Below, piece by piece: positions 43,604 to 63,589 of a stretch of 64,000 bases of DNA. Origin of the DNA: an uncultured Acidobacteriota bacterium (lineage in GTDB: Bacteria > Acidobacteriota > Polarisedimenticolia > J045); the NCBI GenBank assembly GCA_963702425.1, contig CAVPCQ010000006.1:256001-320000 (forward strand). The letters are read 5' to 3'. Made by a program: the position numbers and the translations under genes. Under the pieces are notes generated by a model that saw only the letters and a list, made by a program, of their open reading frames with translations, was not told the origin of the DNA and made no database searches. Position 1 is the first letter of the stretch. Each line of letters opens with the position of its first letter.

Positions 43604-44287
43604 ATGGGGGATCTTCATCTACTCGTCGTCGACGACGACGATCTCGTCGCATGGGCCCTGGAGAAGGCCGCCGCGCAGCGTCACGCCGAGGTCTGCGTCG
43701 CCGCCACCGGCTCGGCCGCGCTCGCCAGGGTGCGGTCGGGCAGCTATGACCTGGCGTTCGTCGACATCCACCTCCCGGATGCGAACGGTCTCGACCTGTT
43801 GATCGAGATCCGCGACCTTTCGCCCGCCACCAAGATCGTCGTCCTCAGCTCGGACGCCACCCCGGGAAACCGCGAGTGCGCCTTCGCCCGCGGCGCGTGG
43901 CAGTTCATCGAGAAGCCCTTCGACCTTGCCGAGATCGCCCAGGTGCTGGGCGACTGCACGGGCCCGCTCGAAGAACGACGGGACGGCAAGCGGACCTTCT
44001 GCCGGCTGCCGATCCGGATCGACGTCGTGGACCCCCCAGCCGACCTGGCCTGCGCCGCCCCCTGCTCGTTCGAAGCGACGGCGACCGACCTCAGCGACGG
44101 CGGCCTCCGGATCCACACCGCCTTCGACCTGCAGCCCGGCCAATTCGTCCGGCTCCACGCGACGAAGACCGACGACCCCTCCGCGGTGATGCTGCGGACC
44201 GCGCGGGACGCGCAGGTCGTGTGGGTCGCGCCGGGAAGCCAGTTCCGGCTGGCGGGCCTCGCCTACACGGCCGACGCGCGCCCCTGA
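43604..44287 (+). CDS. Response regulator REC + PilZ domain
   Basis: LVVDDD, VDIHLPD, EKPF; PilZ RDGKR (RxxxR) and DLSDGG. Confidence 0.85.
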   Translation: MGDLHLLVVDDDDLVAWALEKAAAQRHAEVCVAATGSAALARVRSGSYDLAFVDIHLPDANGLDLLIEIRDLSPATKIVVLSSDATPGNRECAFARGAWQFIEKPFDLAEIAQVLGDCTGPLEERRDGKRTFCRLPIRIDVVDPPADLACAAPCSFEATATDLSDGGLRIHTAFDLQPGQFVRLHATKTDDPSAVMLRTARDAQVVWVAPGSQFRLAGLAYTADARP

Positions 44288-44321
44288 GCGCTTCCGTCGC
44301 GGGCTCCCCGGATGGTCTCCG

Positions 44322-45472: not shown

Positions 45473-46875
<1,403 letters not shown>

Positions 46876-46879
<4 letters not shown>

Positions 46880-48328: not shown

Positions 48329-49275
48329 CGGCTGGTGTCGTACTCGTAGCGATCGAGATCCAGTCCCGCCTCCTTGGCGAAGCGGTAGACCGGCTCGTAG
48401 TCCTCGTCCCGGGTCTCGATGAACTTCACGGCGCCCAGCCGCTCGAGGGCGCGCCGCCCTTCCGGTTCCTCGTGCATCGCCAGGAGGGCGTCGCGCAGCC
48501 GCGCCCGCAGCCCCGGGTCGAGGTCCCGCCGGAGCGCGAGGCCGTTCTCGGGGACGTCCGGGGAGCGCGCCAGGAAGTTCAACTCCGAGATGACGCGCGG
48601 GTCCTCGCCCGCCATCCGCTCGAGCACGCTGCTCTTGGCGGCGCCCGCGTCCGCCCGGCCGTCGAGCACGTCGCGGACGGCGTCCTCGTGCGTCCCCGTG
48701 AAGTAGGTCTCGCCGAGGAAGGTGCGGTAGTCCTTCACGCCGTTCTTCGCCAGGTAGTCCAGCGGGAGCAGGTAGCCGGCGGTGGTCGCCTGGTCGACGA
48801 AGGCGAAACGCTTGCCGCGCAGCCCCTCGGCATCGTGGATCCCGCTGTCGCGGCGCACGAGGATCACGCCGAAGTAGGTCGACCGGCCGTTCTGCATCAG
48901 GGGCCGGGCGATGACATCGACGTCGAGCCGGCGATGGGCCAGGGCATAGGTGAAGCTGCCGAAGAAGGCGCCATCCAGCCCGGCGGACTTGAAGTTGGAG
49001 ACGATGTTCCCGTAGCGCGCCAGGATCGTCAGCCGGATCTTCGTCCCGCTGCGGGCCGAGAGGTACGCGGCGAGCGGCTCGTAGCGCTCGAGCTGCCGGA
49101 AGATGTTCCGCTCGGGGAGCAGGCCGATCACCAGCTCGCGGCGCTCGGCGGCGGGTTTCGGCTCGTTCGGCGCCGGCAGCGGGGTCCCGTGCGCACCCGC
49201 GGGGATCGGGTCGCCCTTGCCACAGGACAGGGCCAGCACACCGACGACGAGCGATGCCATGCGCCGCCAGGTCAC
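48325..49275 (-). CDS. PhnD-like periplasmic substrate-binding lipoprotein
   Basis: Lipobox LALSC; YEPLAAYL, GKRFAFVDQATTAGYLLP, GTHEDAV; no ABC permease/ATPase nearby. Confidence 0.8.
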   Translation of the reverse strand: MTWRRMASLVVGVLALSCGKGDPIPAGAHGTPLPAPNEPKPAAERRELVIGLLPERNIFRQLERYEPLAAYLSARSGTKIRLTILARYGNIVSNFKSAGLDGAFFGSFTYALAHRRLDVDVIARPLMQNGRSTYFGVILVRRDSGIHDAEGLRGKRFAFVDQATTAGYLLPLDYLAKNGVKDYRTFLGETYFTGTHEDAVRDVLDGRADAGAAKSSVLERMAGEDPRVISELNFLARSPDVPENGLALRRDLDPGLRARLRDALLAMHEEPEGRRALERLGAVKFIETRDEDYEPVYRFAKEAGLDLDRYEYDTSR

Positions 49276-50244
49276 GCTGAGCCCTCCTTCGCGGTCCCGG
49301 ACCGCCGCCGGCCCGCGCCTGCCCTCCGTTGCCGGCCTACTGGCGCGATCAGAAAGACCTGGACGCGATTGTTGTTCCGGTCGGCGATGTAGATCATGCC
49401 GCTCGGATCGTAGGCGATCGCCGACGGGTAGCGCAGGAACCCCTCCCGCACCCCCATCGTCCCCTGGCGGCCCTGGAACGAGCCGTCCGGACCGAGGATC
49501 ACGACGCCGTCGCCGTACTGGTCGACGATGAACAGGTGTCCCGAGTCGGCGGCGGCCAGGCTGGTCGCGAACTCCAGCTCCTGCTCGAGCGAGCCGCCGA
49601 ATGGCGCCACCTCGGCCGAGCCCGTGCGCACGACGTAGGCCTGGTTCCCGAGGCTGTCGACGAGGTAGAGGTTCCCGCGCGGATCGACCGCGAGGTCCGA
49701 GAAGAACTCTTTCCCGGTGCGGCAACGCGATCTCTCGCGCGAGCTTCCCGGCGCCGTCGAGCACGATCACCCGAGGCACCGACACGTCCAGTACGAAGAG
49801 CTCGTCCTGCCGGTCGACGGTGAACCCGCGCACGGCCGGAGCGCCGGAGACCGGGAGCTCGACGAACCCCTTGAACGCCCCGTCCGGCGAGAGCCGCGCG
49901 ATGCGGCGCGACCGGCCATCGAGCACCAGCAGATCGCCCTTCGCGGTGAACTCGAGCCGCGTCGGGTAGGGCACCTCGGCGAGCGTGAACTCGGCGACCG
50001 GCTGGATCCCGTCGGCCGCCGCACGGAAGGTCACGATCCGCCCGGCTCCGGTGTCGGCGACGGCGATCGTCGATCCCGGTCCGAACGCCACCCCTTCCGG
50101 CGCGCTGAGGGCTGCTCCCTTGGAGTCGGTGTAGAGCGGGGGCTGCGCGCGCAGCTTCAGCCCACCCGCCGCCTGCGCCGAAAACCACGCCCCCGGCAGC
50201 GCCGCCGCCAGCGTCAACGACAGAACGAAGTCTCTCCGCCGCAC
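49272..50244 (-). CDS. NHL-repeat beta-propeller protein (frameshift near 49715)
   Basis: PEGVAF, VADTG, LRYPSAIAYD..IYIADRNNNRVQVF; MRRRDFVL Tat-like leader. Confidence 0.8.
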
Positions 50245-50248: not shown

Positions 50249-51520
50249 CTACCTCCTGAAGTCCTGGTGACAGGTGACGCAGAGGTCCATCTTCTTGTCC
50301 TGCCACGTGATGTACTTGTGCGCCGACCCGTGAGAGTCGTGGCAGCTCAGGCAATCGACACGCACGTTCTTGCTGCGCGGATCGACCACGTCCTTGCCGA
50401 TCGGGTGTGTCGAGTGTTCCTTCCAGTCGTGACAGGAGGCGCAGACGGCCGTCGAGTCCGCGGCGTTGAACAGCAGAACCGTGTTCGAACCGTGCGGTGC
50501 GTGGCAGGCGGAACAGTTCCCGTCGGCAACCGGTGCGTGCTTCGCGGTCGAGCCGAGCGCCTGTTTGACGGCGTCCGAGTGGCACGAGCCGCAGACCTTG
50601 ATCTCCGGACCCGCGAGCAGCTTCCCGGCCTTCGAGGCGTGGGGCCGGTGGCAATTGAGGCAGGCCTTCCGGTCGAGCACCGGCCAGTGGACGCGGTTCA
50701 GTCCCATGGTCTCGTTCACCAGCTCGCTGTGGCAACCGCGGCAGCCGTCGATCCCCGACTTCTTCACCTTGAGCGCGTCGGGCGAGGCGGCATCGAAGTG
50801 GCAGTTGGCGCACATCCGGTTGGCGACCGGCTGGTGGACGCTGGCCCAGAGGATCCCCTTCTGGCTCGAGCCGTGGGGATCGTGGCACGAGGCGCAGTCG
50901 GACTTGCCGACCGGGTAGTTCAGGTGCGCGGTCCGGAACGGCGCTGCGTCGGTCTTGTGGCACTCGACGCACAGCCCCGGGGTCGACTTCACCAGCAGAT
51001 GATCGGACTCCTTGGAACTGTGCGGGTTGTGGCAGCCGAGGCACGACTTGCTGACCGGGCCGTGCTTGAACGTCGCAGCCTCGACGGCCTTGCCAAGGTC
51101 GGCGTGACACTTGAAGCACAGGGCGGAACCGGAAGCCAGCAGTTGGTCCTTGCTCCCCGAGGCGTGGGGATCGTGGCACTTGGTGCACTGGCCGTCCACG
51201 GCGTCCTGGTGGGCGCTCTTCGCCCCCGCGGGGACGATGTCGGCGTGACAGGTCGCGCAGATCCGGTCCGGACTCTCCGCCAGCAGCTTGCCGTGCGAGG
51301 AAGCGTGCGGGCTGTGGCAGTCGCTGCACTCGCCGGCCCTGACCGGCGTGTGCACGAACGGCTGCTTCATCGTCTCCTGGAACTGCACGTGGCAGGACAG
51401 GCAGGCCTTGCCTTTCGCCCCGGGCTTCAGCTTGTACTTCGCCTCGTCGGTCTGACCCGCCGCCCCGGCCGCAGAGAGGGCCGCGAGGAGGACGAACGCG
51501 ACGATGAGTCGGGTCTTCAT
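50249..51520 (-). CDS. 16-heme c-type cytochrome (paired CxxCH repeats)
   Basis: Signal peptide; 16 CxxCH motifs counted; HxPV…CxxCHxPH…LL…CxxCH repeat. Confidence 0.93.
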   Translation of the reverse strand: MKTRLIVAFVLLAALSAAGAAGQTDEAKYKLKPGAKGKACLSCHVQFQETMKQPFVHTPVRAGECSDCHSPHASSHGKLLAESPDRICATCHADIVPAGAKSAHQDAVDGQCTKCHDPHASGSKDQLLASGSALCFKCHADLGKAVEAATFKHGPVSKSCLGCHNPHSSKESDHLLVKSTPGLCVECHKTDAAPFRTAHLNYPVGKSDCASCHDPHGSSQKGILWASVHQPVANRMCANCHFDAASPDALKVKKSGIDGCRGCHSELVNETMGLNRVHWPVLDRKACLNCHRPHASKAGKLLAGPEIKVCGSCHSDAVKQALGSTAKHAPVADGNCSACHAPHGSNTVLLFNAADSTAVCASCHDWKEHSTHPIGKDVVDPRSKNVRVDCLSCHDSHGSAHKYITWQDKKMDLCVTCHQDFRR

Positions 51521-51530: not shown

Positions 51531-53504
51531 CTACCGCTTCGTCACGGTGTGGCACTCCTCGCAGGAGCCGCCGACGAAGGGAGCGTGGACCTCCGCCTGG
51601 AAGAGGTGCGGATCCTTCGAGGCGTGGGGGGCGTGGCAGCTGACGCAGTTCATCACCGCCGGGTCGATCGAGAGGTGCTTGTTGGCGAACGAAGCGTCCT
51701 TGACGTCGTGGCAGGTGGCGCAGAGCGTTCCCTGCGGCTCGGTGAGCAGCGCCGCCTGCGGACCCTCGTGGGGGCGGTGGCAGGTCTGGCAGTCGCTCTC
51801 GACGGGCGCGTGGACGGTGCCGGCCTTCATCGTCTCGGCGAGCGTCTTGTGGCACGACAGGCACAGGTCGGTGCCGGACGCGAGGAGCAGCTTCGGGAGC
51901 TTGGTCGCGTGGCCGCCGTGGCAGCCGGAGCACTGCCCGTCGGCGACCGGCTTGTGCTTGGCCCGGGCCGCCTTGACGGCATCGGTCACATCCGCGTGGC
52001 ACTCGCCGCAGACCTGGGTCTGGCCCGCCTTCATCAGGCCCGTGACGTTGGAAGCGTGGACCGCGTGGCAGGTGGCGCAGTCCCCGGCCTCGAACGGCGC
52101 GTGGACCGTCTGGCCCTCGGCCGGCTTCATCATCCCGCCGTGGCAGGTCGCGCAGAGGTCGGAGCCGGCCTTGACCAGCAGCTTCGGCTGCGCCGCGCCG
52201 TGAGCGGCGTGGCACGGCGAGCAGTTCCCGTTCATCACCGGCCCGTGGACGCTGGTCTTGGCGAAGTCGGCCTCGGCGTCGCTGTGGCAGCCGTAGCAGA
52301 CCCGGTCCTCGCGGTCGATCAGGAGGTGCGGCGCCTGCGAACCGTGGGGGTTGTGGCACGACGAGCACATCCCCTCCTGAAACGGCGTGTGCGCCACCTT
52401 GAAGGTCTCGGCCTTCTGCTTGCTGTGGCAGGGGTAGCAGAGCTCGGCGTCCTTGGCGAGCAGCAGCCCCTTCTCCTTCGCCGCGTGCGCACCGTGACAG
52501 GAGAGGCAGCCCTTCCCTTCGCCGACGGCCTTGTGCGCGACCGTCATCGACGCGGTCTGCTCCTTGTGACAGTCGGCGCAGAGCGCATTCCCGGACTTTC
52601 GGAGCAGGTCGGGAGCCTGCGAGGCGTGCGGATCGTGGCACGACGAGCACTTCCCGGCCGTGAACGGTGCGTGAACGATCTTCGCACCGCCGGTCAGCGT
52701 CGCTTCGTCGTGGCAGGTGGCACAGAGGGCCACGCCATCGCTCGTGACCGCGAACGGCTTGGCGTCCTTGGCGTCGGCGTGGCAAGCGCTACAGCTCCCC
52801 GACGCCACGGGATCGTGGGCGCTGACCTTCAGGAGACCCTTCTGCACCGAGGAGTGGGGGTCGTGGCAAAGCGAGCAGTCCGCGTTTTGAACCGGGTAGC
52901 CCTCGTGGGCCTTGCGGAACGGCTCCTTGCCGGCGTCGTGGCACTCGGCGCAGAGCTGCGCCTTCGGTTTGAGCAGCAGGTCCGGCTGGTCGGCGCTGTG
53001 GGAACCGTGGCACGCCGTGCAGCCCGTCGTCTCGAGCGGCGCGTGGACGACCGCCTGCTCGAACGGCTTGCGGTCGTGGCACTCGTAGCAGGCGGCCGCA
53101 CCCTGGGCCTTGAGCAGGTCCGCCCCCGCGCCGCCGTGCGGGTCGTGGCAGGCCGTGCACTTGGCCCGCTTCAGCGGGGTGTGCACGTGAGGCTTGCCGA
53201 GCCCCAGCGACTCCTTGGTGTGACACGATTCGCACAGGGCGTTCCCGTCCTTCTTGAGCAGCATCTTCGGAACCAGCCCGTGGCGGAGGTGGCAATCCTC
53301 GCACCGGCCTTCCTTCACGCCCGGGTGCGCGCTGGCGTAGGACTTCATCGTCTCGGCGAACTTCGAGTGGCAGTCGAGGCAACCCTTCTTCTCGACCTTC
53401 TTCTGGGCGAGCGCCGGCGGGGCGGAGAGCGCCGCCAACGTCAGGCCCGCGCAGAGCGCGAAAAGCGCGCGGGATGCCTTCGGGCCACGAGACTGAGGTC
53501 GCAT
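51531..53504 (-). CDS. 26-heme c-type cytochrome (paired CxxCH repeats)
   Basis: Signal peptide (…PALA|QKK); 26 CxxCH motifs counted. Confidence 0.93.
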   Translation of the reverse strand: MRPQSRGPKASRALFALCAGLTLAALSAPPALAQKKVEKKGCLDCHSKFAETMKSYASAHPGVKEGRCEDCHLRHGLVPKMLLKKDGNALCESCHTKESLGLGKPHVHTPLKRAKCTACHDPHGGAGADLLKAQGAAACYECHDRKPFEQAVVHAPLETTGCTACHGSHSADQPDLLLKPKAQLCAECHDAGKEPFRKAHEGYPVQNADCSLCHDPHSSVQKGLLKVSAHDPVASGSCSACHADAKDAKPFAVTSDGVALCATCHDEATLTGGAKIVHAPFTAGKCSSCHDPHASQAPDLLRKSGNALCADCHKEQTASMTVAHKAVGEGKGCLSCHGAHAAKEKGLLLAKDAELCYPCHSKQKAETFKVAHTPFQEGMCSSCHNPHGSQAPHLLIDREDRVCYGCHSDAEADFAKTSVHGPVMNGNCSPCHAAHGAAQPKLLVKAGSDLCATCHGGMMKPAEGQTVHAPFEAGDCATCHAVHASNVTGLMKAGQTQVCGECHADVTDAVKAARAKHKPVADGQCSGCHGGHATKLPKLLLASGTDLCLSCHKTLAETMKAGTVHAPVESDCQTCHRPHEGPQAALLTEPQGTLCATCHDVKDASFANKHLSIDPAVMNCVSCHAPHASKDPHLFQAEVHAPFVGGSCEECHTVTKR

Positions 53505-53706
53505 ACGGTGCTCCACCTCCGAACCCCTGGATCGCGAGATGATACCGGGTTGAATGAAGCCGTGCAGCAAGTTTGTTAGTTTCGCTTGTAACTAGAGTAA
53601 TCGCTCCCAACGCCAAGTCAACATCGGGTCCTGTCACCCTGCGGCGCGGCTCCGCAGTTCGTCCGGGCAGGAGGTGAAGATCAGGCGAACAATGCTGTCG
53701 GCTCGC

Positions 53707-55422
53707 TCAGCTGTCGCCCTGCAGGTCGCGCATGATCACCCGCTTGAGCTGATCGCCCGTGGCGAAAACCTCCACCTTCGAGGCCTTGCGCAGCGCCGCT
53801 GCGTTCGCGGCGATGGTCTTCGCGAGCTGCTCGGCGTACACCTTGTCCGCAACGACTTTCTTGACCGCGTTGAGTTCCTGGATCTTCGTGGGGCGGCGGT
53901 CCCGGAGGACGATGACCTCGAACGGTCCGCTCGCCGTCGCCTCGTAGAAGCGGTAGTCGCCCGAATTGGCCCCCTTGATCGCCTTCTCCGCCGCGTCCGG
54001 GAGGGTCGAGGTCACGACCAGTCCCTTCGGGAAGGACAACTCGTCCTGCTTTTCCTTCGGAACGCGCCCGGGCGCGTTGGCCTTCACCCAGTTCCAGTCG
54101 GCTCCCTTCTGGAGCTTCGCAAACGCGTCCTGGGCCTCGGCCCGGCCGCTGAAGACGAGCGCCTCGAGCTGCACCATCTCCGGCGTCGTGTAGTCCGCCT
54201 TGTGCGCGTCGTAGTAGGCCTTCAGGTCGTCCTCGGTGATCTTCACCTCGGGCAGGATCGCCCGCTTGACGTACAGCTCGAACAGGATCTGGTCGCCGCC
54301 GCGAGCCACACGCTCCTTGAACTCCGGTGTGTCGTCGATCTTCAGGACCTTTGCCTCGAGCGGAACGACCCGCCGGTTGATCACATCGTCGAGAACCGGG
54401 GCCTTCTCCGTGTTGACGTGTTTGGTCGAGTCCGACAGGGCCCTGTCGACGCCGTGGAAGAAGCGCCGCTCCATCCCCTTTCCCAGGTCGCCGACCGTCA
54501 CCGGGGCCTCCCCCTTGATCGTGGCCAGTGGCCGGGTGTCCTTGACCAGCTCGGCAATCGCCCCCTTCTTCTCGAAGTCGAGGGAGGCGAGCAGCTTCTC
54601 GTCGACCTTGGCGTACTTCGCGCGCAGCGCCGCAGAGTACCGCTTGATCGCCTCCTCGCGCTGGGACTCGAGAGCCTTCTCGCGCGCCGCCTCCCGGGCT
54701 TCCGGGTTCTCCGGGTACGCCACGGCAACGAAGTGGACGAACGCCCAGTCCTTCTCGCTCTGCATGATCGGCCCGGTCTGGCCCGGCTTCAGCAGGCCGA
54801 GCAGCTTGGCCACGCCCGGCACCAGTTCCGTCGCCTTGACCGCCTGCGCGGCCTCCGTCCCCTTGGCCTTTCCTGCGGCCATCGCCTGCCTGGCGAGTTT
54901 GAAGAAGTCGCCGCCGGCCTTGATCCCGGTCTCGAACTCCAGGGCGTCGATCTGCTTGGGGAAGGCAACCGAACCGATCGTGTACACGCGCACCAGGTCC
55001 TCGTAGAACTTCTCCACGCGCGCCGGATCGGGCTTGATGTTCTTCGTCTCGCGCTCGATGAGGATGTCGCGCATCACCGAGCTTTCGACGTTGCCGATCG
55101 CCGCGAGGTACTCCTCCTGTTCGTCAAAACCCGCAGTTCGCGCCTCCTGCGCGATCAGTTTGGCGGTGATCATGCGCTCCAGCAGTGCCGACGGGTCCTG
55201 TCCCATCGGTGCCGCCAGATCCGCTTCCATGTGGATCTTGGCGAGCTGACGCTCGACGTCGGCCAGCGGGATCGGCTCGCCGTTGACGACCGCCACCGCC
55301 TCGACCCCGTTGACCACGGGCAGGGGGGCGGATTTTGGACGTACCGGCGCGGGGGGCGCCGCGAGCGCCGGGACGAGCGAACCGAGAAAGAGCAGGCCGA
55401 ACGGGACCGAAGCGCGTCTCAT
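53707..55422 (-). CDS. SurA/PrsA-like periplasmic chaperone with parvulin-like domains
   Basis: VAVVNGEPIPLADV, LLERMITAKLIAQEA, DFFKLA, ITEDDLKAYYDAHK..YTTPE; duplicated architecture. Confidence 0.75.
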   Translation of the reverse strand: MRRASVPFGLLFLGSLVPALAAPPAPVRPKSAPLPVVNGVEAVAVVNGEPIPLADVERQLAKIHMEADLAAPMGQDPSALLERMITAKLIAQEARTAGFDEQEEYLAAIGNVESSVMRDILIERETKNIKPDPARVEKFYEDLVRVYTIGSVAFPKQIDALEFETGIKAGGDFFKLARQAMAAGKAKGTEAAQAVKATELVPGVAKLLGLLKPGQTGPIMQSEKDWAFVHFVAVAYPENPEAREAAREKALESQREEAIKRYSAALRAKYAKVDEKLLASLDFEKKGAIAELVKDTRPLATIKGEAPVTVGDLGKGMERRFFHGVDRALSDSTKHVNTEKAPVLDDVINRRVVPLEAKVLKIDDTPEFKERVARGGDQILFELYVKRAILPEVKITEDDLKAYYDAHKADYTTPEMVQLEALVFSGRAEAQDAFAKLQKGADWNWVKANAPGRVPKEKQDELSFPKGLVVTSTLPDAAEKAIKGANSGDYRFYEATASGPFEVIVLRDRRPTKIQELNAVKKVVADKVYAEQLAKTIAANAAALRKASKVEVFATGDQLKRVIMRDLQGDS

Positions 55423-55509: not shown

Positions 55510-56616
55510 TCAGCGCCGGGCGGCGGCGAAAACCCCCCGGAGCATCTCGTCCGCCAGCCGGTCGGCGGTCCGGATCTCGCCGATGTCGAACCAGAAGACG
55601 CGATCCAGGCCGGTCGCGTAGGAGAAGGCCACCCAGGTCACCTGGCGCCGCCTGGCGTCGATGCCCGTCGTCGTGAAACCGACTACGGGAGCGGCGTCGG
55701 GCGTCCCCGGATCGTCGAAGTCGAAGACGGTCCCGGTGACCACCAGGTCGACGTCGAGCAACCCCCGCAGCAGCTCGGCCTGGGCGTAGGTGAGCCCCCC
55801 CTCCTGGATCAGCCGCGTCTCGAGCAGCACGCGCCGCACCTCGCCCGGCTCGACGATCGTCAGTCCGGGAATCCCCACCAGTGCCGCGATGCTGCGATTG
55901 CAGACGATCTCGCCCGCCTGGCGCCGGATGCTGTCGTTGGAGAACGGGAGCACGGCGACGCGCAAGGGCTCGCCACCCAGCGGCTCGGCCTCGGGGGCGG
56001 CGTGGAAGGCGCGCGGTTGGAATCGCTTCTGGGGAGCACGTCCGGCGTGCGGCACGACTCCCGTCTGGATGAACGCGCCGAGCTCATCCACCAGGCGCTC
56101 GAGCGCCCGTGCGGTCAGGACGCCGGGGTCCTCGACCAGCTTCAGCTCGAGCAGCCCGGGCTTCTCCTCGCCGGCCAGCGCAAAGGCGGTCGCCCAGAGC
56201 ACCTGCACGCCGTCCGGGCCCGTCCCGACGAGACGCGCGGAGAGCCCGATCCGGGGCGGGCTCGCCCCTTCGAACATGTCGAGGTTCGTCACCAGCACCG
56301 CGTTCGTGCGCTGCTCCTCCCAGAGCGCGCGCCCCAGCCCGGCGTCCACTCCTCCGACCCAGCGCGTGCGCCGCGACGCGAGCGCCGCGCGGAGCGACTC
56401 CCCGTCGAGCAGCGTGATGCCCCGTGCCGCGAGCATTCCGGTGAGTACGGTGTGGATCTCGTCGACCGGGGCGCTGCCGCCGGAGAGATTGTCGATCGGC
56501 AGGACAGCGAGCCGCAGTTCGGCGAACGGGCGGGCGGGCGGAGCGGCAGCGGCTGCAGCCGGCGACGCCATCGGCAGCAGCGCCGCGGCGGCGAGCAGGC
56601 TTCCGGTCATGGCCAT
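55510..56616 (-). CDS. Exported protein with two CsgG/TolB_N-like domains
   Basis: Two repeats of the (L/V)AVLP(I/F)xN motif; LDVDLVVTGTV. Confidence 0.65.
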   Translation of the reverse strand: MAMTGSLLAAAALLPMASPAAAAAAPPARPFAELRLAVLPIDNLSGGSAPVDEIHTVLTGMLAARGITLLDGESLRAALASRRTRWVGGVDAGLGRALWEEQRTNAVLVTNLDMFEGASPPRIGLSARLVGTGPDGVQVLWATAFALAGEEKPGLLELKLVEDPGVLTARALERLVDELGAFIQTGVVPHAGRAPQKRFQPRAFHAAPEAEPLGGEPLRVAVLPFSNDSIRRQAGEIVCNRSIAALVGIPGLTIVEPGEVRRVLLETRLIQEGGLTYAQAELLRGLLDVDLVVTGTVFDFDDPGTPDAAPVVGFTTTGIDARRRQVTWVAFSYATGLDRVFWFDIGEIRTADRLADEMLRGVFAAARR

Positions 56617-56651
56617 CCAACGGCGCACGGCACTCGCTCCCGACCTGCCCG

Positions 56652-57278
56652 TTACTGGTAGATCTGGTCGATCAGGTCGCGCAGGGCATCCTCGGTGACG
56701 AGCTCCATCGGCTCGCCGCCGCCGCCGAAGAAGCGGTCGCTGGCGGTCACGCCGCCGGCGGTCGAGGACCCGCTCCAGACCACCTTTCCGCTCTCGGTCG
56801 CGAAGATCTTGACGCCGATCGCGATCGCGTTCGCGGTACTGTTGCCGGAGCGCACCTGGCCGTACTCCCTGACCACGCCGGTGACGACGACGTCGGCCTT
56901 CACCGCCGAGCCGACCGCGGTCACTTCCTCCGGGGAGGGCTCGTCGTTGCGGGCGACGCGGGAGCGGCCCAGCGCCTTCGCGACCTCGCCGGGCGGTACG
57001 ACGTAGACCGCGCCGGTCGCCTGCAGCATCGTGCTGAAGACGTCGCGCACCCGCTCGCCGGCCTTGTCGTCCGAGGTCAGGTTCGCGAACGGCATGACGG
57101 CGACCGTCTGGACCAGGCTGAGGTCGATCTCCGGGTCCTTGTAGGTCGAGTTCAGCCCGCGGGTGGTGCCGCACCCTGCCGCCGCGCCGACCAGCACGAC
57201 GGCGATGAGGACGACGACAGCCAGGAGCGTGGTGCTCCGGGGATCCGCGGGTCGGCTGGCCCTGTCCTTGCGATTCAT
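56652..57278 (-). CDS. CsgG/LpoB-like lipoprotein
   Basis: Lipobox AAAGC; VAVMPFANLT, ADVVVTGVVREYG, ESGKVVWS. Confidence 0.75.
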   Translation of the reverse strand: MNRKDRASRPADPRSTTLLAVVVLIAVVLVGAAAGCGTTRGLNSTYKDPEIDLSLVQTVAVMPFANLTSDDKAGERVRDVFSTMLQATGAVYVVPPGEVAKALGRSRVARNDEPSPEEVTAVGSAVKADVVVTGVVREYGQVRSGNSTANAIAIGVKIFATESGKVVWSGSSTAGGVTASDRFFGGGGEPMELVTEDALRDLIDQIYQ

Positions 57279-57291
57279 GGCGATCACCCCT

Positions 57292-59538
57292 TTAGAATCC
57301 CACTCGCAGCGTGGCCGCGAGCGTCTCGCGGTCGAACCGCTGCAGGATCGATTCCGTCTCGAACGACTCCCAGTACACCTCGAGGTACGAGATCGGATTG
57401 AAATACCAGCGCACGCCCGGCCCGTAGATCCGGGACTGGCTTTGAAGCAGCGTGTCGGAGAACTCCTCGTAGCGCAACGAGAGCCGGAGCGTACCCAGCG
57501 GGAAGGGCGACCAGTTGAGCGAGGTCGTCGTCAGCCGGCGGGGCTCCGGGACCTCGCTGGACTTCTCGATGCGATAGGATCCGAAGAAGTAGATCGACGG
57601 GACGGGCGTCCACGACAGCGAGATCTCCGAAGCGTCGAGGAAGGTGTTGCCCGCGTCGGCGATCCCACCTTTTTGATCGTTTCGCGTCCTGTCGTACCCC
57701 AGGAAGACGCTCAATGTCGGGTTCGGCAACAGTTCCAGTGCCACCCGCCCGGTCTGGCTGTCGACGGTTGAGCCGGGCAGGAGCTGACCGTTGCGGGCGG
57801 TGCCCGGCAGGAAGTCGGTCTGCGCGAGCCCTCCACCGAACTGCAGGTTGATCCCGGTGTAGAGGTTGGCCGTCGCGTTGAGGAAGAGGGACTTGTTGTC
57901 CTGGTCGAGGCCGTACTGGTAGCGCTCGCGCGAGCCGCTCGCGGTCAGGGTGGCGGAGAACGTGGGGATCGGCGTCGCCGTCGCGGCGGCGCCCCAGAGG
58001 GTCGCCGTGCGGCGCCCGTACACGGAACGGCCGGTCTCGTAGCCGACCCGGCCGTTGACGATCCACGCCGGATTGAAGCGATAGGCGAGCGAGAGAATGT
58101 TCGAAAGCGTGTCGCTGGCCAGCCGGCCGTCCGGAATGTTGGCGACGTAGGTCAGGTCGTAGGTCAGGCTCGGTTTCTCGAGCAGCAGGACCTGGGCGCC
58201 GGCGTAGATCCGCTGGTCGGTGGACGAGCTCTCGACCGAGTTGCCGGTCACCTCGCGGAACAGGAGCGCCTCCAGTTCCGTGACCTCGATCACCCGGTAG
58301 TCCTGCGCGTTCGGCGCCCCGGCTGCGAGTGGCGCCACGACGACCTTCAGGTAGCGCGCAGCGATCGCCGCGAAGCGCAGCTCGAAGTAGTGCTCGAAGG
58401 GCGCGAACGGGGCCGATCCCAGCGTCCGCTGCCGGGTCCAGCGCACGTTGTCCGAGCTGCTCCAGACCTCCCAGGTGAAGGTCCGCGAGATCTCGATCGG
58501 CAGGTCGCGGTCGACCCACACCCGAAACGAGCTGACCGCGCGAGGGATCTCGAAATCGAGCCCGATGTTGCGCAGGCGGCGGTCATCCGATGCGGGGGGA
58601 AGGCCCAGGTTGATCCCGGCCGCCGCTTCCCGGTTGCCGTCGATCAGGGCGGGATTCGGGGTCAGGGTGACGTTCGCCGGGAGATCGCTCAGCGCGGAGA
58701 GGCCACGGATCGCGATCACCGGCAGCTCGATCTCCCCCTGCCCCTGGGCGCGCGACTCGACCTGCCGCACCGAGACGTCGTAGCTGGCGGCGAGCGACAA
58801 CCGACCGCCCCAATAGCTGTCGCCGTAGAGCACTCGCGCGGCCTGGTTGAAGCTGTCGATCTCGGTCTCCCGCAGCTGGTCGTCCAGCCAGTTCCAGGAG
58901 CCGCGGTAGTTCAGCGTGAGCGGGTCGATCGGCCGGTAGTTGGCGTTGACGAGGAAGCGGTCGGTCTGCTGATCCAGCAGCTGCCGCTGGTCATCGCGGT
59001 CGTCGGTCCGGAAGTACGAAACGCGCACGAAGCTGGCTGGCTCCGGGTACCAGCCGAGCGAGATGCCGTAGGCGTCGCGGACCAGGGACCGCGTCGGGCC
59101 TCCGCCCGAGCTGGCCCGCGACTCGTTGCGCTGCCAGCCGATCTCCGCGATGTTGGTCGGGGTCTGCCAGGTCAGCGTGACGTAGGGGAGCAGCCTCGCC
59201 AAGGTCCCGGAGGTGGCGATGTCGGCCACTTCCGCCCGGCCGTGCTGCTGCTCGAACAGTCCCCCGACCTGCAGCGAGATGTTGGGCCACAGCTGCTGCT
59301 GGTAGGTGAAGCTGAGGCGCCCGAGCCAGCTGCGCGTCTGCGTCGTCGAGGCCGGAAAGGGATAGACCTCGTTCGTTTCGTCGACGCGGGTCGGCAGGAT
59401 CTCCACGTAACCGTTGAGGCTCTGGGCGCGGGCGGCGGGCGCCAGGAGCAGCAGCAGGCCGAGCAGCGCCCCGCAGGACGCCAGCGTTCGCGGACCGCGG
59501 GGGCCCCCGTCCGCGCCGGCCGGGCGGCGCTCGCTCAT
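57292..59538 (-). CDS. Large outer-membrane beta-barrel with inserted discoidin-like domain
   Basis: Signal peptide; amphipathic aromatic strands; central LIDGN…IGLDF…WEVWSSSDNVRW…ARYLKVVV…VTELEA; C-terminal F. Confidence 0.7.
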   Translation of the reverse strand: MSERRPAGADGGPRGPRTLASCGALLGLLLLLAPAARAQSLNGYVEILPTRVDETNEVYPFPASTTQTRSWLGRLSFTYQQQLWPNISLQVGGLFEQQHGRAEVADIATSGTLARLLPYVTLTWQTPTNIAEIGWQRNESRASSGGGPTRSLVRDAYGISLGWYPEPASFVRVSYFRTDDRDDQRQLLDQQTDRFLVNANYRPIDPLTLNYRGSWNWLDDQLRETEIDSFNQAARVLYGDSYWGGRLSLAASYDVSVRQVESRAQGQGEIELPVIAIRGLSALSDLPANVTLTPNPALIDGNREAAAGINLGLPPASDDRRLRNIGLDFEIPRAVSSFRVWVDRDLPIEISRTFTWEVWSSSDNVRWTRQRTLGSAPFAPFEHYFELRFAAIAARYLKVVVAPLAAGAPNAQDYRVIEVTELEALLFREVTGNSVESSSTDQRIYAGAQVLLLEKPSLTYDLTYVANIPDGRLASDTLSNILSLAYRFNPAWIVNGRVGYETGRSVYGRRTATLWGAAATATPIPTFSATLTASGSRERYQYGLDQDNKSLFLNATANLYTGINLQFGGGLAQTDFLPGTARNGQLLPGSTVDSQTGRVALELLPNPTLSVFLGYDRTRNDQKGGIADAGNTFLDASEISLSWTPVPSIYFFGSYRIEKSSEVPEPRRLTTTSLNWSPFPLGTLRLSLRYEEFSDTLLQSQSRIYGPGVRWYFNPISYLEVYWESFETESILQRFDRETLAATLRVGF

Positions 59539-60944
59539 CGCTCTCCGGACAGTGCGACGAACCGCACGCCGGCGCCGGTCGTGACGACACCCTCGATGGA
59601 ACGCGACACGGGGCTGACGCGGACGATCTCTCCCGCTCTCGGCAACACGGCGACGAGATTGGCGAGCTCGCGGTCGATGGTCAGGTAGGCGACGTCGCCC
59701 GGCACCGGCAGGCGCTCGATCGCCAGCAGCGAGAAGGGATCGAACACCTCGATCGCCCCGGTCCCCCGGCGGGCGATGTAGATCCGGTCCGTTGCCGCAT
59801 CGACGCGGAGCGCCGACTGCCCGGGACCGACGAACGGGCGCTGGATGGCGGCCAGCGTCGCCAGGTCCCCGACGAGCACGTAGGGCGACCCTTCCTGGGC
59901 CACGTAGAGCCGATCCTGGGCGCGATTGAGCTGGACGCGGAACGGACCGGGATCGGTCGGGATCGCCCCCGCCGTCCGGCGCGATGCGACATCGAGCAGC
60001 ACGACCTGGTTGGCCAGGCGGCACGGGACGAACGCGCGCCTCCCCTGTCGATCGAGCAGCACGGCCACCGGCGACTCGCCCACCACCGCGCGCCCGATCT
60101 CCGCCAGGCCCTGCGTGGAGACGAAGGCGACGCTCGACGAGCCCTCGTTGGCGACGACGAGGGTCGTGCCGTCCGGTGTCAGCGCGAGGTCGACCGGGTG
60201 GTCCCCTCCCCGCAGCGGGCGGCGGTCGACGATCGTCCCCTGCTCGAGGTCGATCGCCACCAGCGCGTCGTCGCCGGAGACGGCGACGTAGGCCCGCTGC
60301 CGCGCGCTGTCGATGGCGAGCCCCACCGGCCGCGCCCCGACGGCGGTGATGCCGACGACCCGTCCGCTGCGCCGGTCGAAGGCCAGCACGATCCCGTCGT
60401 CGGTCAGCGTCGCGAGCCCGATCAGGCCGGTCGGTGGCCGGGCTGGGATCGCGGCGCGGAAGGCTGGAACGAAGAGGAACCCGTCGGCCAGCGCGGCCTT
60501 GAGATCCAGCGCGAAATCGACGACCAGCCCGCGGCGTTCCGTGATCGTGAACGGCAGCTCGACCCGGGTCGGGGTCTCGGGGACCCGCAGGTCGGAGGGG
60601 CCGTCCGGGCCGGTCAGGCTCGCTGCGGTCGCCGTCACCTCGAATCCCGTATACCTCCCGGGGGGGATCGAACCGGCCGCGATCAGCCGCTCGTGCCGCG
60701 GCCCCTCGCGCTCGACCTCGGGGTCCAGCAGCCGGAGCGGCACGATCCCGCCGTCCTCGCGCACGGCGCTGATCCCGCCGAGGCGGGCCCGCAGCCCCTG
60801 CGTCCCCCCCGGAGAGGGGTCGGCGTAGATCACGAGCGGGGCGGCGGAGGGATCGAACGCCGAGGTCGCCGGGACCCGGGCCGGCGTGGCACACCCGGCG
60901 GACAGGCAGACGGCGAGCGCGAGGACGATCCACCTGGAGTGCAT
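59535..60944 (-). CDS. Lipoprotein with N-terminal Ig-like domain and YVTN/YncE beta-propeller
   Basis: Lipobox LSAGC; VGARPVGLAID…AYVA, LALTPDGTTLVVANEGS repeats. Confidence 0.8.
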   Translation of the reverse strand: MHSRWIVLALAVCLSAGCATPARVPATSAFDPSAAPLVIYADPSPGGTQGLRARLGGISAVREDGGIVPLRLLDPEVEREGPRHERLIAAGSIPPGRYTGFEVTATAASLTGPDGPSDLRVPETPTRVELPFTITERRGLVVDFALDLKAALADGFLFVPAFRAAIPARPPTGLIGLATLTDDGIVLAFDRRSGRVVGITAVGARPVGLAIDSARQRAYVAVSGDDALVAIDLEQGTIVDRRPLRGGDHPVDLALTPDGTTLVVANEGSSSVAFVSTQGLAEIGRAVVGESPVAVLLDRQGRRAFVPCRLANQVVLLDVASRRTAGAIPTDPGPFRVQLNRAQDRLYVAQEGSPYVLVGDLATLAAIQRPFVGPGQSALRVDAATDRIYIARRGTGAIEVFDPFSLLAIERLPVPGDVAYLTIDRELANLVAVLPRAGEIVRVSPVSRSIEGVVTTGAGVRFVALSGER

Positions 60945-61012
60945 CTCGGCCTTCCCTGCCCGAAGGGCGCCGGCGGGCCACGGCTGCGAAGGGCGCGGGG
61001 ATCTTAGCAGAC

Positions 61013-61040
61013 GAGGGGGCTGGCTTGCGCCAGCCCCCTC
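61013..61040 (-). terminator. Strong hairpin downstream of omcS-like gene
   Basis: GAGGGGGCTGGC-GCAA-GCCAGCCCCCTC on minus strand: 12-bp stem, GNRA loop, no U-tract. Confidence 0.6.
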
Positions 61041-61071
61041 CAACCATCACGCGACGGGTGACTCCGTCACG

Positions 61072-62421
61072 CTAGTCCTGAGCGTGGCACTTGTTGCAGA
61101 GCACGCGGTCGTACGGACCGAAGTGCGTGGAGGCATCGCGGCCGTAGTACGCGACCTGCCAGTTGGCGATCGTCCGGCCGCGGGACTGGGCCGGGCCACG
61201 ACCGGTCGTGCCGATCGTCGGGTTGTCCGAACCGGGGTAGTTCCCGCCCTTGGTCATGAACTCGTAGCCGTAGTCCCAGCGCAGATCCTCGACGAAGCCG
61301 GAGGCGTGGGCGCGGTGGCAGGAGAGGCACATGACCTCGGCACCCGCTCCGGGGCCGCTGAGGAAGCTGTCGTTGATCTGGGCGTGCGACGCCAGCACCG
61401 CGATCGACGAAGTCGCCTCGGCGAACGGAACGAGGGTGCTGTAGGCCAGGGTGCTGTTGCCGTTGAGCCGGCCGGAGGAGACGTACGCGTTGTAGTTGGT
61501 CGCTTCGGAACCGGTCGACGAACCGACGGGGCCGACGCCGAGGGCCTCGCCCGTCGGGTGGTGCTCGTCGTCGCCGCCGGCGACGTTGAAGTCACCGTGG
61601 CAGGCGCCGCACCAGGTGCCCCAGTCGTTCGCCGAACCGGCGCCGCCGTAGGCCACGCGGGTCTGGTCGGTGTTCTCGTTGCGGTTGTAGGTCGACGGGG
61701 AGACCGCGACCGGGTAGCTGGTGTAGTTCGCACCAGCCGGCGGGTTCGGCGACGCCGGGGCCCACAGCAGGCGGTAGATGCCGACGGCGAGACCGGTCGG
61801 GGCGCCCTGGTTCTCCTGGCCGCCGCCGCCGTAGGTGTTGGCCTTCGGGACCGCGCCGTAGGAGCCGGAGGTGTAGATCGGCTCGCCGCTGCCCGTGCCG
61901 CCGAAGCCGCCGACGCCGTTGTTGTACAGCTGCCGGCCCTTGCCGTGCGGGTCGTGGCAGCTCTGGCAGCCGAGGACCGACGCGTCGAAGGTGCCGCCCG
62001 GGCCGTACGGCCGACGGGTGTCCGGCGCGAAGCCGAAGTCGGAGGCCACGATGCTGTGGCCGCGGGTGTAGCCGGGCTCGCTGTAGTTGGTCCCGCTGAG
62101 CACCCACGTGAAGTCGACCTTCAGCCAGCCGAAGTCGCCGCCCGGCGTCATCTGGACGGGCATCTTGGTCGTGGAGGCGTCGAGCGTGGCCACGTGGTAG
62201 CTGCTCGGTGCAGTGTCCACCGTGTTGCCGTGGCAGGACGGGTTGATGCAGGTCGAGCTGGCGTCACCGCCGAGCAGCAGGTTGCCGTCGGTCGAGGTCG
62301 CCTCGTGCATGCTGTGGCAGCCTTCGCACTCGGCAACGCCGCCGGAATGGAACGCGAACGCGTTCAGGCCGACTGCCGCGAGAAGCACCGCCAGTACTAC
62401 GATGATCCGGTTCCGCTTCAT
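61072..62421 (-). CDS. omcS: OmcS-family hexaheme cytochrome (nanowire subunit candidate)
   Basis: AFA|FHSGGVAECEGCHSMH, PSSYH, QMTPGGDFGW, CQSCHDPHGK, PSTYNR, TRVAYG, CLSCHRAHASGF, AYYGR, LCNKCHAQD; colinear with Geobacter OmcS as recalled. Confidence 0.9.
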   Translation of the reverse strand: MKRNRIIVVLAVLLAAVGLNAFAFHSGGVAECEGCHSMHEATSTDGNLLLGGDASSTCINPSCHGNTVDTAPSSYHVATLDASTTKMPVQMTPGGDFGWLKVDFTWVLSGTNYSEPGYTRGHSIVASDFGFAPDTRRPYGPGGTFDASVLGCQSCHDPHGKGRQLYNNGVGGFGGTGSGEPIYTSGSYGAVPKANTYGGGGQENQGAPTGLAVGIYRLLWAPASPNPPAGANYTSYPVAVSPSTYNRNENTDQTRVAYGGAGSANDWGTWCGACHGDFNVAGGDDEHHPTGEALGVGPVGSSTGSEATNYNAYVSSGRLNGNSTLAYSTLVPFAEATSSIAVLASHAQINDSFLSGPGAGAEVMCLSCHRAHASGFVEDLRWDYGYEFMTKGGNYPGSDNPTIGTTGRGPAQSRGRTIANWQVAYYGRDASTHFGPYDRVLCNKCHAQD

Positions 62422-62437: not shown

Positions 62438-62522
62438 CCCCCGGCAGCCCGGCCATCCTGACCATTCAGGACCCTCGGCTTTGTGTCCCCGTCTTGCGGC
62501 GGGTTTACCTTTCTCGGAGGGG
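62438..62522 (-). ncRNA. GEMM-I (c-di-GMP-I / cGAMP class) riboswitch
   Basis: GAAAGGTAAACCCGCC-GCAA-GACGGGGACACAAAGCC..GGTCCTGA-ATGG-TCAGGA..CCGGGCTGCCG; P2 with GNRA loop, P3, conserved junctions; abuts GGAGGAG RBS. Confidence 0.85.
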
Positions 62523-62623: not shown

Positions 62624-63589
62624 CTAGCCCCGCTCTCCGGAAGGCGAGAGCGTGAAGACCGCGACGCCGCGGTTCCGCAACTGCGATACGAACAACCGGC
62701 CGGCCGCCGAAATGGCCAGGTCGGCCGGCCTGATCATCTTTCCATCGGCGGTCCCGTACCCGCCGAACTCGGTGACGAACTGCAGGCCGCTGTCGAAGAC
62801 GTTGACCGAGCTGCGCAGCATGTCCGCGACGTAGATGTTCCCGGCGGCGTCGGTGGCGACCGAGCCGGCCAGGTTGAACTTGCCCGGCCGCGAGCCGGCC
62901 TCGCCGAAGCGGCGGACGGCGCCGTCGGGCGCCATCACGTAGACGCCGAAGTCGATCGGCACGCTGACGATCACGTTCCCCTGCGGGTCGACCGCCATCC
63001 CGGCGAAGTCGGCGTTCTTGCGGATCTCCTTCTCGTCCGGCAGGGACTCGGTGAAGTCCTTGACCTGCAGCAGGCCGGCGCGCTTGTTCAGCACCAGGAC
63101 CTGCAGCCGGTTCGACGCTCCGAGGTAGAACTTGCCGCCGGCGTAGATCACCGTGCTGGGCGAGAAGTCCTTCAGCCCATCCGGGATCCCCGCCGGCAGC
63201 AGCTTCTCCTGCGGTACGCCGCGGTAGTCGCAGCGCAGCAGGAAGAAGTCGCCGCCGCCCGGGCGCCGGATCGGTTCGTAGCCGAGGAAGTAGAGGTCGC
63301 CGGTCTCGTCGACCGCGACGTCGTAGATCGTCCCGGCTGCCGGGTCGAGCGGGAAGGAGTAGGTTTCCATCCCGGTCGGCCCGAAGACCCTGAGGAAGCC
63401 CTCGCTCAGGATGAAGGCCTCTTCCCGCACGGCGTCCAGCCGGACCCGCACGCCCATGAACGGCACCGTCCCCGTGAAGTCGGCGAGGTTGTACTCGAAG
63501 CGGGGGGCGATCTCCGCCGCGGGCGCGACGCCGACCGCAGCGACCAGCGTCGCTGCCAGAGCCAGAACCGTGTGGGGGACGCTCCTCAT
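62624..63589 (-). CDS. NHL-repeat beta-propeller protein, first gene of omcS operon
   Basis: Signal peptide; GEAGSRPGKFNLAGSVATDAAGNIYVAD, FGGYGTADGKMIRPADLA. Confidence 0.85.
   Translation of the reverse strand: MRSVPHTVLALAATLVAAVGVAPAAEIAPRFEYNLADFTGTVPFMGVRVRLDAVREEAFILSEGFLRVFGPTGMETYSFPLDPAAGTIYDVAVDETGDLYFLGYEPIRRPGGGDFFLLRCDYRGVPQEKLLPAGIPDGLKDFSPSTVIYAGGKFYLGASNRLQVLVLNKRAGLLQVKDFTESLPDEKEIRKNADFAGMAVDPQGNVIVSVPIDFGVYVMAPDGAVRRFGEAGSRPGKFNLAGSVATDAAGNIYVADMLRSSVNVFDSGLQFVTEFGGYGTADGKMIRPADLAISAAGRLFVSQLRNRGVAVFTLSPSGERG

What the first reader, a model, noticed from the sequence alone, without database searches (positions are those of the whole stretch)
61072..62421. OmcS homolog keeps the inter-subunit His16 but has a non-canonical CX4CH heme site
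Seen: mature N-terminus FHSGGVAECEGCHSMH, so His16 is present. There are five CxxCH motifs, and CINPSCH sits at the position of the second motif. Known: in OmcS filaments His16 ligates a heme of the neighbouring subunit, which is the basis of polymerisation. Inference: this protein can polymerise, and the expanded motif may alter heme geometry or need a permissive maturase.
Basis: partly seen in the sequence, partly recalled or inferred. Interest (0 to 1): 0.8.

Follow-up and report, generated by a model that had tools for sequence, protein, structure and literature searches.

The report
OmcS-type cytochrome with CX4CH heme site
This gene from an uncultured Acidobacteriota bacterium encodes a clear relative of the Geobacter "nanowire" cytochrome OmcS in which one of the six heme-attachment motifs is two residues longer than usual, a real and inherited but modest variation on a known system.

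Summary
Window 61072-62421 (-) encodes a 449-aa secreted protein that matches OmcS (PDB 6EF8) over its full length (E 9.8e-84). It has five CXXCH motifs plus CINPSCH exactly where OmcS has its second motif.

The two-residue expansion is not an error. The same codons occur in independent assemblies and public contigs. All four species of the window's genus that carry the gene have CX4CH there. The change recurs at least four times in the family, always at site 2.

All 12 Cys and the 12 family-conserved His are present, including the His16 equivalent, so six bis-His hemes are likely.

His16 is nearly universal in the family (213 of 219) and also sits in paralogues not known to form wires, so it does not by itself predict polymerisation. 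Context supports it better: the gene heads the conserved OmcS-assembly gene block and follows a cyclic-dinucleotide riboswitch.

I found no sign of a special maturase. The genome has an ordinary Ccm operon and a CcsBA-like gene, as do relatives with the canonical motif.

Verdict: a new variant within a known, widely distributed system; earlier scan notes record similar OmcS clusters on other DNA. Heme count and filament formation remain untested.

The parts
62439..62518 (-). c-di-GMP-I-GGC (GEMM-I variant) riboswitch aptamer. It lies 17 nt upstream of the start codon, and its 3' end abuts the GGAGGAG ribosome-binding site.
   Evidence: Rfam RF03167, 62.1 bits against a gathering score of 59, E 1.5e-13, full model 1-80. 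The same family lies upstream of the orthologues in L004, L005 and L015, 3 of 7 loci scanned.
61072..62421 (-). OmcS-family hexaheme c-type cytochrome, 449 aa (P0001). The signal peptide is residues 1-23 and the mature protein is 426 aa.
   Evidence: ORF. phmmer against the PDB gives 6ef8_A/6nef at E 9.8e-84, query 24-449 against chain 1-407. Foldseek places the AF2 model on 6ef8_A at E 1.1e-24, TM 0.64/0.70.
62305..62307 (-). Codon of His39, which corresponds to mature His16, the inter-subunit heme ligand of OmcS.
   Evidence: Aligned to OmcS residue 16. Conserved in 213 of 219 full-length family members.
62230..62250 (-). CX4CH heme-attachment motif CINPSCH (residues 58-64) at heme site 2.
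   Evidence: for the motif. for the alignment to the second OmcS motif with a 2-residue gap. for the 6-nt in-frame expansion shared with L004 and L005. for contigs that bridge it without gaps.
61013..61072 (-). Two strong GC-rich hairpins directly after the stop codon, in the spacer before the next gene. They look like a terminator or attenuator.
   Evidence: RNA fold of 60995-61075(-): -47.5 kcal/mol, z -5.25, 0 of 200 shuffles as low. No U-tract follows. There is a weak sub-threshold Rfam hit only.
62624..63589 (-). NHL-repeat beta-propeller protein upstream of the cytochrome; the first gene of the conserved block.
   Evidence: Pfam NHL. Syntenic in all 16 cluster-bearing loci listed.
59535..60944 (-). 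YncE/YVTN-type beta-propeller lipoprotein with an LSAGC lipobox.
   Evidence: Pfam PF21783. NCBIfam beta_rpt_yvtn. Start confirmed. Syntenic.
57292..59538 (-). Secreted protein of about 748 aa with no family assignment; a putative outer-membrane component. Its ATG overlaps the stop of the previous gene.
   Evidence: No Pfam family. Start confirmed. Conserved in position across phyla.
56652..57287 (-). Small lipoprotein resembling LptE/LpoB/GNA1162.
   Evidence: Pfam weak hits. Syntenic.
55510..56650 (-). Conserved protein of unknown family. The true start is uncertain because the long ORF overlaps the preceding gene.
   Evidence: No Pfam or NCBIfam family. Distant homologues match only residues from about 190-220 onward of the 554-aa ORF.
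53707..55422 (-). PpiC-type peptidyl-prolyl isomerase (SurA-like chaperone).
   Evidence: Pfam PF13145, E 4.5e-18. Syntenic.
51531..53570 (-). Multiheme cytochrome with 26 CXXCH motifs.
   Evidence: Syntenic.
50249..51520 (-). Multiheme cytochrome with 16 CXXCH motifs.
   Evidence: Syntenic.

Best explanation
The gene encodes a Sec-exported member of the OmcS family that most likely binds six bis-histidine c-type hemes. Heme 2 is attached through a CX4CH motif, which is the ordinary CXXCH with a two-residue bulge between the thioether cysteines.

The bulge is a tolerated, inherited variant. It is fixed in the window's genus and has arisen repeatedly at this one site in the family. The general cytochrome c maturation machinery probably handles it.

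The protein is the only intact OmcS-family gene at the head of a complete copy of the conserved OmcS-assembly gene block, and it sits behind a cyclic-dinucleotide riboswitch. It is therefore the likely subunit of an extracellular cytochrome filament. In that filament, His39 (mature His16) of one subunit would ligate heme 5 of the next subunit, as in OmcS.

Shown here: homology, motif content, conservation, synteny and the riboswitch. Inferred: six hemes, maturation by the general machinery, and polymerisation.
For: Homology:
- Full-length match to OmcS 6ef8_A, E 9.8e-84.
- Fold match, TM 0.64/0.70.

Heme ligands:
- All 12 Cys are conserved in 219 of 219 full-length relatives.
- The 12 conserved His are 25, 36, 64, 122, 156, 159, 275, 369, 372 and 446 (219 of 219 each), 288 (216 of 219) and 39 (213 of 219). 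All are present in this protein. The next best His reaches only 163 of 219.
- All 12 are identical to the aligned OmcS residues.

The CX4CH motif:
- Shared by P0002, P0003 and P0004 and by L004 and L005.
- All 4 genomes of the genus that carry the gene have it, while the 13 orthologues from other genera that I read have CXXCH.
- In total 9 of 219 full-length rows have it, always at site 2. The tree needs at least 5 changes, 4 of them forced by starred branches.

Context:
- The gene order NHL, cytochrome, beta-propeller, ~720-aa protein, lipoprotein, unknown, PPIase, 26-heme and 16-heme cytochromes is conserved in Acidobacteriota, Geobacteraceae, Anaeromyxobacter, Nitrospirota and Thermodesulfobacteriota loci.
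- This matches the eight-gene block that PMC12977616 (passages) says was linked to OmcS maturation and secretion.
- Riboswitch RF03167 scores above its gathering score here and in 3 relatives.

Maturation:
- CcmE, CcmF and CcmC lie on contig C37, and a CcsBA-like ORF lies on C29.
- CcmE is also present in hosts of canonical orthologues.
Against: - No experiment shows heme occupancy or filaments.
- The AF2 model is of low confidence (mean pLDDT 62, below 50 around both ends of the site-2 motif), so it says nothing about heme-2 geometry.
- Only OmcS itself is known to form a wire among its Geobacter relatives (PMC12977616).
- The window protein lies outside both Geobacteraceae groups in the tree, so orthology to the wire-forming copy is not resolved.
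- The riboswitch was not found at gathering score in 4 of the 7 loci scanned, including the Geobacteraceae and Anaeromyxobacter ones.
- The identity of the six distal ligands is inferred from conservation, not read from coordinates.
Confidence: 0.7

Rival explanations
1. The CX4CH expansion has a function. It could retune heme 2 (potential, ruffling, or spacing to hemes 1 and 3), or it could form a surface loop for a partner. Alternatively it could be possible only in hosts with System I (Ccm) maturation.
For: - The change recurs at least 4 times, and only at site 2.
- It is fixed in a whole genus.
- The stem branch of that clade is long, 0.67 changes per column.
- All four Acidobacteriota hosts tested have CcmE, whereas Geomobilimonas luticola has no CcmE match but seven ResB matches. 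No Geobacteraceae or Myxococcota copy read has CX4CH.
Against: - The inserted residues are not conserved between origins (NP-S, SS-S, QP-T, QS-A, ST-S, KS-G). That fits a permissive loop better than a selected function.
- Hosts of the canonical Acidobacteriota orthologues have the same CcmE.
- Only one origin could be tied to a host genome, so the maturation-system link rests on a single case.
Confidence: 0.15
2. The protein is an accessory or periplasmic OmcS-family cytochrome, the counterpart of the GSU2501-type copy adjacent to the assembly genes, and not a filament subunit.
For: - It lies directly upstream of the beta-propeller gene, the position held by the second, CYKCH-type copy in Citrifermentans and Geomonas loci.
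- The functions of OmcS relatives are unknown (PMC12977616).
Against: - It is the only intact family member in the cluster.
- It ends in CNKCH like the OmcS-type copies.
- It falls outside the split between the two Geobacteraceae types.
- It carries a riboswitch leader.
- It is followed by strong hairpins, as expected for a highly expressed major subunit.
Confidence: 0.12
3. Heme site 2 is degenerate, so the protein carries only five hemes.
For: The motif is non-canonical, and no direct evidence of attachment exists.
Against: - Cys58, Cys63 and His64 are conserved in 219 of 219 relatives, and all candidate distal His are kept.
- The motif is maintained, with only a synonymous change, across species 79-86% identical.
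- CX4CH is listed among described heme-binding motifs (PMC11492766, passage).
Confidence: 0.03

Closest known systems
OmcS of Geobacter sulfurreducens (PDB 6EF8 / 6NEF), the hexaheme nanowire subunit
   Same: - Full-length homology (E 9.8e-84) and the same fold.
- Six heme sites in the same order.
- All 12 conserved His, including the His16 equivalent.
- The same mature N-terminus.
- Location next to the conserved assembly genes.
   Different: - Heme site 2 is CX4CH, not CXXCH.
- About 40% identity in the Foldseek alignment of the model to 6ef8_A.
- About 20 extra residues, including a Gly-rich insertion near residues 168-210.
- The host is an Acidobacteriota with System I maturation.
- The lineage branches outside the Geobacteraceae OmcS-type and second-copy groups.
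- Filament formation is not shown.
omcS-companion (osc) assembly cluster, GSU2501-GSU2493 (Shen et al. 2025, Cell Chem Biol; not readable here, known only through citing passages in PMC12977616 and earlier scan notes)
   Same: The same order of NHL, beta-propeller, large secreted protein, lipoprotein, PPIase and two large multiheme cytochromes as in the Geomobilimonas, Citrifermentans and Geomonas loci.
   Different: - A single intact OmcS-family gene, where Geobacter sulfurreducens has omcS, omcT and GSU2501.
- A second, frameshifted paralogue lies 16 kb away, beyond a sigma-54 regulator.
CX4CH heme sites of tetraheme cytochrome c3 (Desulfovibrio); recalled, with CX4CH listed as a described motif in PMC11492766
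   Same: Two cysteines four residues apart followed by the proximal His, in a bis-His multiheme protein.
   Different: An unrelated fold. In this family the motif is a derived two-residue insertion into a CXXCH site, not an ancestral feature.
OmcZ nanowire, heme 1 bound by a non-canonical motif (PMC9473688, passage; the exact spacing is recalled, not seen)
   Same: A filament-forming cytochrome that tolerates one non-CXXCH attachment motif.
   Different: A different family, a much longer spacer, and no inter-subunit His ligation.
GEMM-I family cyclic-dinucleotide riboswitches upstream of Geobacter omcS (recalled)
   Same: A cyclic-dinucleotide aptamer in the leader of the OmcS-type gene.
   Different: This one is the c-di-GMP-I-GGC variant (RF03167). 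Its ligand was not determined.

Membership tests
OmcS family of hexaheme cytochromes | Significant full-length sequence similarity to OmcS | tested here: met
   phmmer E 9.8e-84, query 24-449 against chain 1-407 of 6ef8_A.
OmcS family of hexaheme cytochromes | Six heme-attachment motifs in the conserved order | tested here: met
   Five CXXCH motifs plus CX4CH at site 2. Both Cys and the His of every site are conserved in 219 of 219 relatives.
OmcS family of hexaheme cytochromes | Six distal His ligands, including the inter-subunit His16 | tested here: met
   His 25, 39, 122, 159, 288 and 372 are the only non-motif His conserved in at least 213 of 219 relatives, and each is identical to the aligned OmcS residue. 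Which heme each one ligates was not read from coordinates.
OmcS family of hexaheme cytochromes | OmcS fold | tested here: met
   Foldseek gives 6ef8_A as the top hit, E 1.1e-24, TM 0.64/0.70. The model has low confidence, mean pLDDT 62.
OmcS family of hexaheme cytochromes | Polymerisation into a heme-stacked filament | not testable with these tools
No experimental data are at hand.
omcS-companion (osc) nanowire assembly cluster | Conserved block of accessory genes next to the OmcS-family gene | tested here: met
   tblastn of 9 neighbouring proteins finds the same order in 16 of the 17 loci printed, among them the Geobacteraceae loci L012, L027, L030, L035 and L038. The published gene-by-gene definition (Shen et al. 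2025) could not be read.
CX4CH c-type heme-binding site | Cys-X4-Cys-His with covalent heme attachment | tested here: inconclusive
   The sequence pattern is present and under conservation. Covalent attachment cannot be tested here.
c-di-GMP-I-GGC riboswitch (RF03167) | Covariance-model score above the Rfam gathering score, in a 5' leader | tested here: met
   62.1 bits against 59, with the full model matched, 17 nt upstream of the ATG. Also found in L004, L005 and L015.

The most novel reading that the evidence does not exclude
The two-residue expansion of the heme-2 attachment loop is a recurrent, adaptive way of retuning one link of the OmcS heme chain, or of creating a docking loop. It may be open only to lineages whose cytochromes are matured by System I (Ccm). 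If so, the maturation system would constrain how cytochrome nanowires can evolve.
Probability: 0.12. Interest if true: 0.55.

Novelty: new variant of a known kind. Interest (0 to 1): 0.3.

Why it matters
OmcS filaments are the model for micrometre-scale biological electron transport. Natural variants at a single heme of the chain are useful probes. A genus-wide CX4CH at heme 2, with several independent parallels, gives ready-made sequences for asking three things: whether the attachment loop affects heme packing, potential or conductivity; whether heterologous hosts can mature it; and how far such wires extend into abundant sediment Acidobacteriota. It does not change the current picture of the system.

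Tried and rejected
- **Complex prediction** for a head-to-tail dimer with hemes was not available.
- **The AF2 model** is too uncertain around residues 17-57 to say anything about the loop.
- **NCBIfam** holds no OmcS-specific or osc-specific model, only generic CXXCH hits.
- **Shen et al. 2025** (the osc cluster paper) is not held. The original OmcS structure papers were not read; the residue number His16 and the pairing with His332 are recalled. My own count on the alignment puts the fifth motif's His at OmcS 332.
- **Literature searches** for OmcS together with CX4CH or CXXXXCH returned 7 and 11 papers. I opened passages of two of them (PMC11492766; PMC10734462). Neither describes such a motif in an OmcS homologue, and the other listed titles concern other topics. 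The searches 'OmcS' with 'His16' and 'OmcS-companion' gave nothing useful.
- **Sequencing error** was rejected as an explanation.
- **A dedicated heme lyase near the locus** was rejected. No Cytochrom_C_asm, CcmE or ResB match lies on contig C6.
- **RNA run X17** holds only short, diverged pieces (share 0.06). It gives no evidence of expression.
- **Skipping joints** across 62145-62304 in some contigs come from diverged relatives and say nothing about this organism.

Full report
**Observation**

The ORF at 61072-62421 on the minus strand encodes 449 residues. It starts with a typical Sec signal: a basic n-region, a hydrophobic core, and AFA before the cleavage point.

A phmmer search against all PDB chain sequences returns one distinct sequence, OmcS of Geobacter sulfurreducens (6ef8_A, also 6nef). 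The E-value is 9.8e-84, and query residues 24-449 align to chain residues 1-407. Residue 24 therefore corresponds to the first residue of mature OmcS, and His39 corresponds to OmcS His16.

The protein has five CXXCH motifs and one CX4CH motif, CINPSCH, at residues 58-64. In the alignment this motif lies opposite the second OmcS motif, with a two-residue gap on the OmcS side.

**Is the odd motif real?**

- Two Acidobacteriota assemblies (L004, 86% identical protein; L005, 79%) carry the same 21 nucleotides with a single synonymous difference.
- A more distant Acidobacteriota orthologue (L015) has the canonical motif and is exactly 6 nt shorter at that point.
- Contigs from two other public runs of different studies bridge the site with no gaps (records 7 and 28). 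These are assembled contigs, so they show presence only.

**Heme ligands**

In an alignment of 219 full-length six-motif family members drawn:
- all 12 motif cysteines are present in 219 of 219;
- twelve histidines stand out: 25, 36, 64, 122, 156, 159, 275, 369, 372 and 446 (219 of 219 each), 288 (216 of 219) and 39 (213 of 219);
- the next best histidine reaches only 163 of 219 (a 33-sequence alignment gave the same twelve as invariant).

Six of these are the motif histidines. The other six are what six bis-His hemes require. By my own count on the alignment, they match OmcS residues 2, 16, 110, 147, 257 and 335. All twelve are present here. Which heme each one ligates was not read from coordinates.

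[quoted passage not shown] The number His16 is recalled.

**How common is CX4CH in the family?**

- Among the query and its 120 best relatives (out of 3411 with E <= 1e-10 among the 7999 candidates scored), 6 of 121 have CX4CH. All six have it at site 2. Another 114 have six CXXCH motifs, and one is an N-terminally truncated fragment.
- Among the 150 best representatives at 50% identity, 100 have six motifs, and 3 of these have CX4CH, again at site 2.
- No other site shows an expanded spacer. One seven-motif protein has a CX1CH string, which I take as chance.
- On a FastTree tree of the 219 full-length rows, the nine CX4CH rows need at least 5 changes, 4 of them forced by well-supported branches. 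The window's clade of four is supported at 99.
- The inserted residues differ between origins.

In the window's own taxonomic neighbourhood (81 genomes of the same class, including its own), 23 have a match at E <= 1e-20. In the same genus, 3 of the 4 other species genomes have the gene, and all carry CX4CH (two CINPSCH, one CLSSSCH). Two of these three are the same records as L004 and L005. The 13 orthologues from other genera that my pattern picked up have CXXCH. Six loci were not picked up by the pattern and were not read.

The expansion is therefore a genus-level inherited trait here, and a recurrent event in the family.

**Context**

The gene is the second of a co-oriented block, in this order:
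1. NHL-repeat protein;
2. the cytochrome;
3. YncE-type beta-propeller lipoprotein;
4. a secreted protein of about 748 aa with no family;
5. a small LptE/LpoB-like lipoprotein;
6. a conserved unknown protein;
7. a PpiC-type isomerase;
8. a 26-heme cytochrome;
9. a 16-heme cytochrome.

These are followed by an NHL plus solute-binding fusion and a histidine-kinase/sigma-54 activator.

tblastn of these proteins against the fetched loci finds the same order in 16 of the 17 loci I printed (L037 has only the cytochrome):
- Acidobacteriota: L004, L005, L006, L009, L013, L015, L024;
- Geobacteraceae: L012, L027, L030, L035, L038;
- Anaeromyxobacter: L016, L017;
- Nitrospirota: L023;
- Thermodesulfobacteriota: L010.

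[quoted passage not shown] 2025). [quoted passage not shown] I could not read Shen et al..

A c-di-GMP-I-GGC riboswitch aptamer (RF03167) lies 17 nt upstream of the start codon. It scores 62.1 bits against a gathering score of 59. It recurs before the orthologues in L004, L005 and L015, but it was not found at gathering score in L006, L012, L016 or L030. Two very stable hairpins follow the stop codon.

**Which family member is it?**

In an IQ-TREE quick tree of 44 copies from named loci, the window protein sits with other single-copy orthologues from Acidobacteriota, Nitrospirota and Thermodesulfobacteriota. The Geobacteraceae OmcS-type copies and the second copies next to the assembly genes (ending CYKCH) both fall in the other half of the tree (midpoint root).

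Orthology to the wire-forming copy is therefore unresolved. The protein is the sole intact family member of its cluster. Every copy in that tree, including the second-copy type, keeps the His16 equivalent. His16 alone does not predict polymerisation.

**Maturation**

- The genome has CcmE (77.7 bits), with CcmF-like and CcmC-like ORFs beside it on contig C37.
- It also has a long ORF on C29 with ResB-like and CcsA-like parts.
- None of these lies on the window's contig.
- CcmE is found in 4 of 5 related host genomes tested: the two with CX4CH and the two Acidobacteriota with canonical motifs. Geomobilimonas luticola has no CcmE match but has seven ResB matches.
- In this genome's 22 multiheme ORFs (at least 3 CXXCH motifs, GC3 above 0.8; 195 CXXCH in all) there are 4 CX4CH strings and 1 CX3CH string.
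- CX4CH is listed among described heme-binding motifs in PMC11492766. That Desulfovibrio c3 sites of this type are matured by the general Ccm system is recalled, not checked.

Nothing here points to a special maturase.

**Structure**

The AF2 model built from a 33-sequence alignment has mean pLDDT 62 and pTM 0.65. It still finds 6ef8_A as the only significant PDB match (E 1.1e-24, TM 0.64/0.70, 40% identity). Confidence around the site-2 motif is too low to discuss geometry. A dimer prediction could not be run.

**Verdict**

This is a genuine OmcS-family cytochrome in an uncultured Acidobacteriota genome, inside a full assembly cluster of a kind already published and already met several times in this scan on other DNA.

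The new element is a conserved CX4CH at heme site 2, with parallels elsewhere in the family. I found no mention of it in the papers I could search. It most likely binds heme normally.

Heme count, any effect on heme 2, and filament formation are open and can be tested directly.

Noticed in passing
window 44263-45447 (-), with its C-terminal part in another frame at about 44320-44540 (-): A second, more divergent OmcS-family gene downstream of the sigma-54 regulator is split by a frameshift. The first four motifs are in one frame, and the CLSCH and CAKCH motifs are in another. The counterpart in a genome of the same genus (L080) is intact with six motifs, so this is either a pseudogene or an assembly error.
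   Followed up: partly
window 62439-62518 (-): A c-di-GMP-I-GGC riboswitch aptamer sits directly before the cytochrome gene, and its 3' end abuts the ribosome-binding site. It is conserved in three Acidobacteriota relatives. The ligand and the mode of control were not determined.
   Followed up: partly
window 61013-61072 (-): Two very stable GC hairpins without a U-tract lie between the cytochrome stop codon and the next gene (-47.5 kcal/mol, z -5.25). This may be an attenuator that sets the ratio of subunit to assembly proteins.
   Followed up: partly
window 59535-59538: The stop codon of the beta-propeller gene overlaps the start codon of the following ~748-aa gene (ATGA), which suggests translational coupling.
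   Followed up: no
genome contigs C1:28680-30209, C10:124899-126959, C37:48497-50584: Three other multiheme ORFs of this genome contain CX4CH strings (CMKAKCH twice, CSQPDCH once). I did not check whether these are true heme sites.
   Followed up: no
window 48325-50244 (-) and 45473-48328 (-): An NHL-repeat plus phosphonate-type solute-binding fusion protein, and a HAMP/HisKA/receiver/sigma-54-activator fusion, follow the cytochrome cluster. Similar genes flank the cluster in L024, L013 and L010.
   Followed up: no
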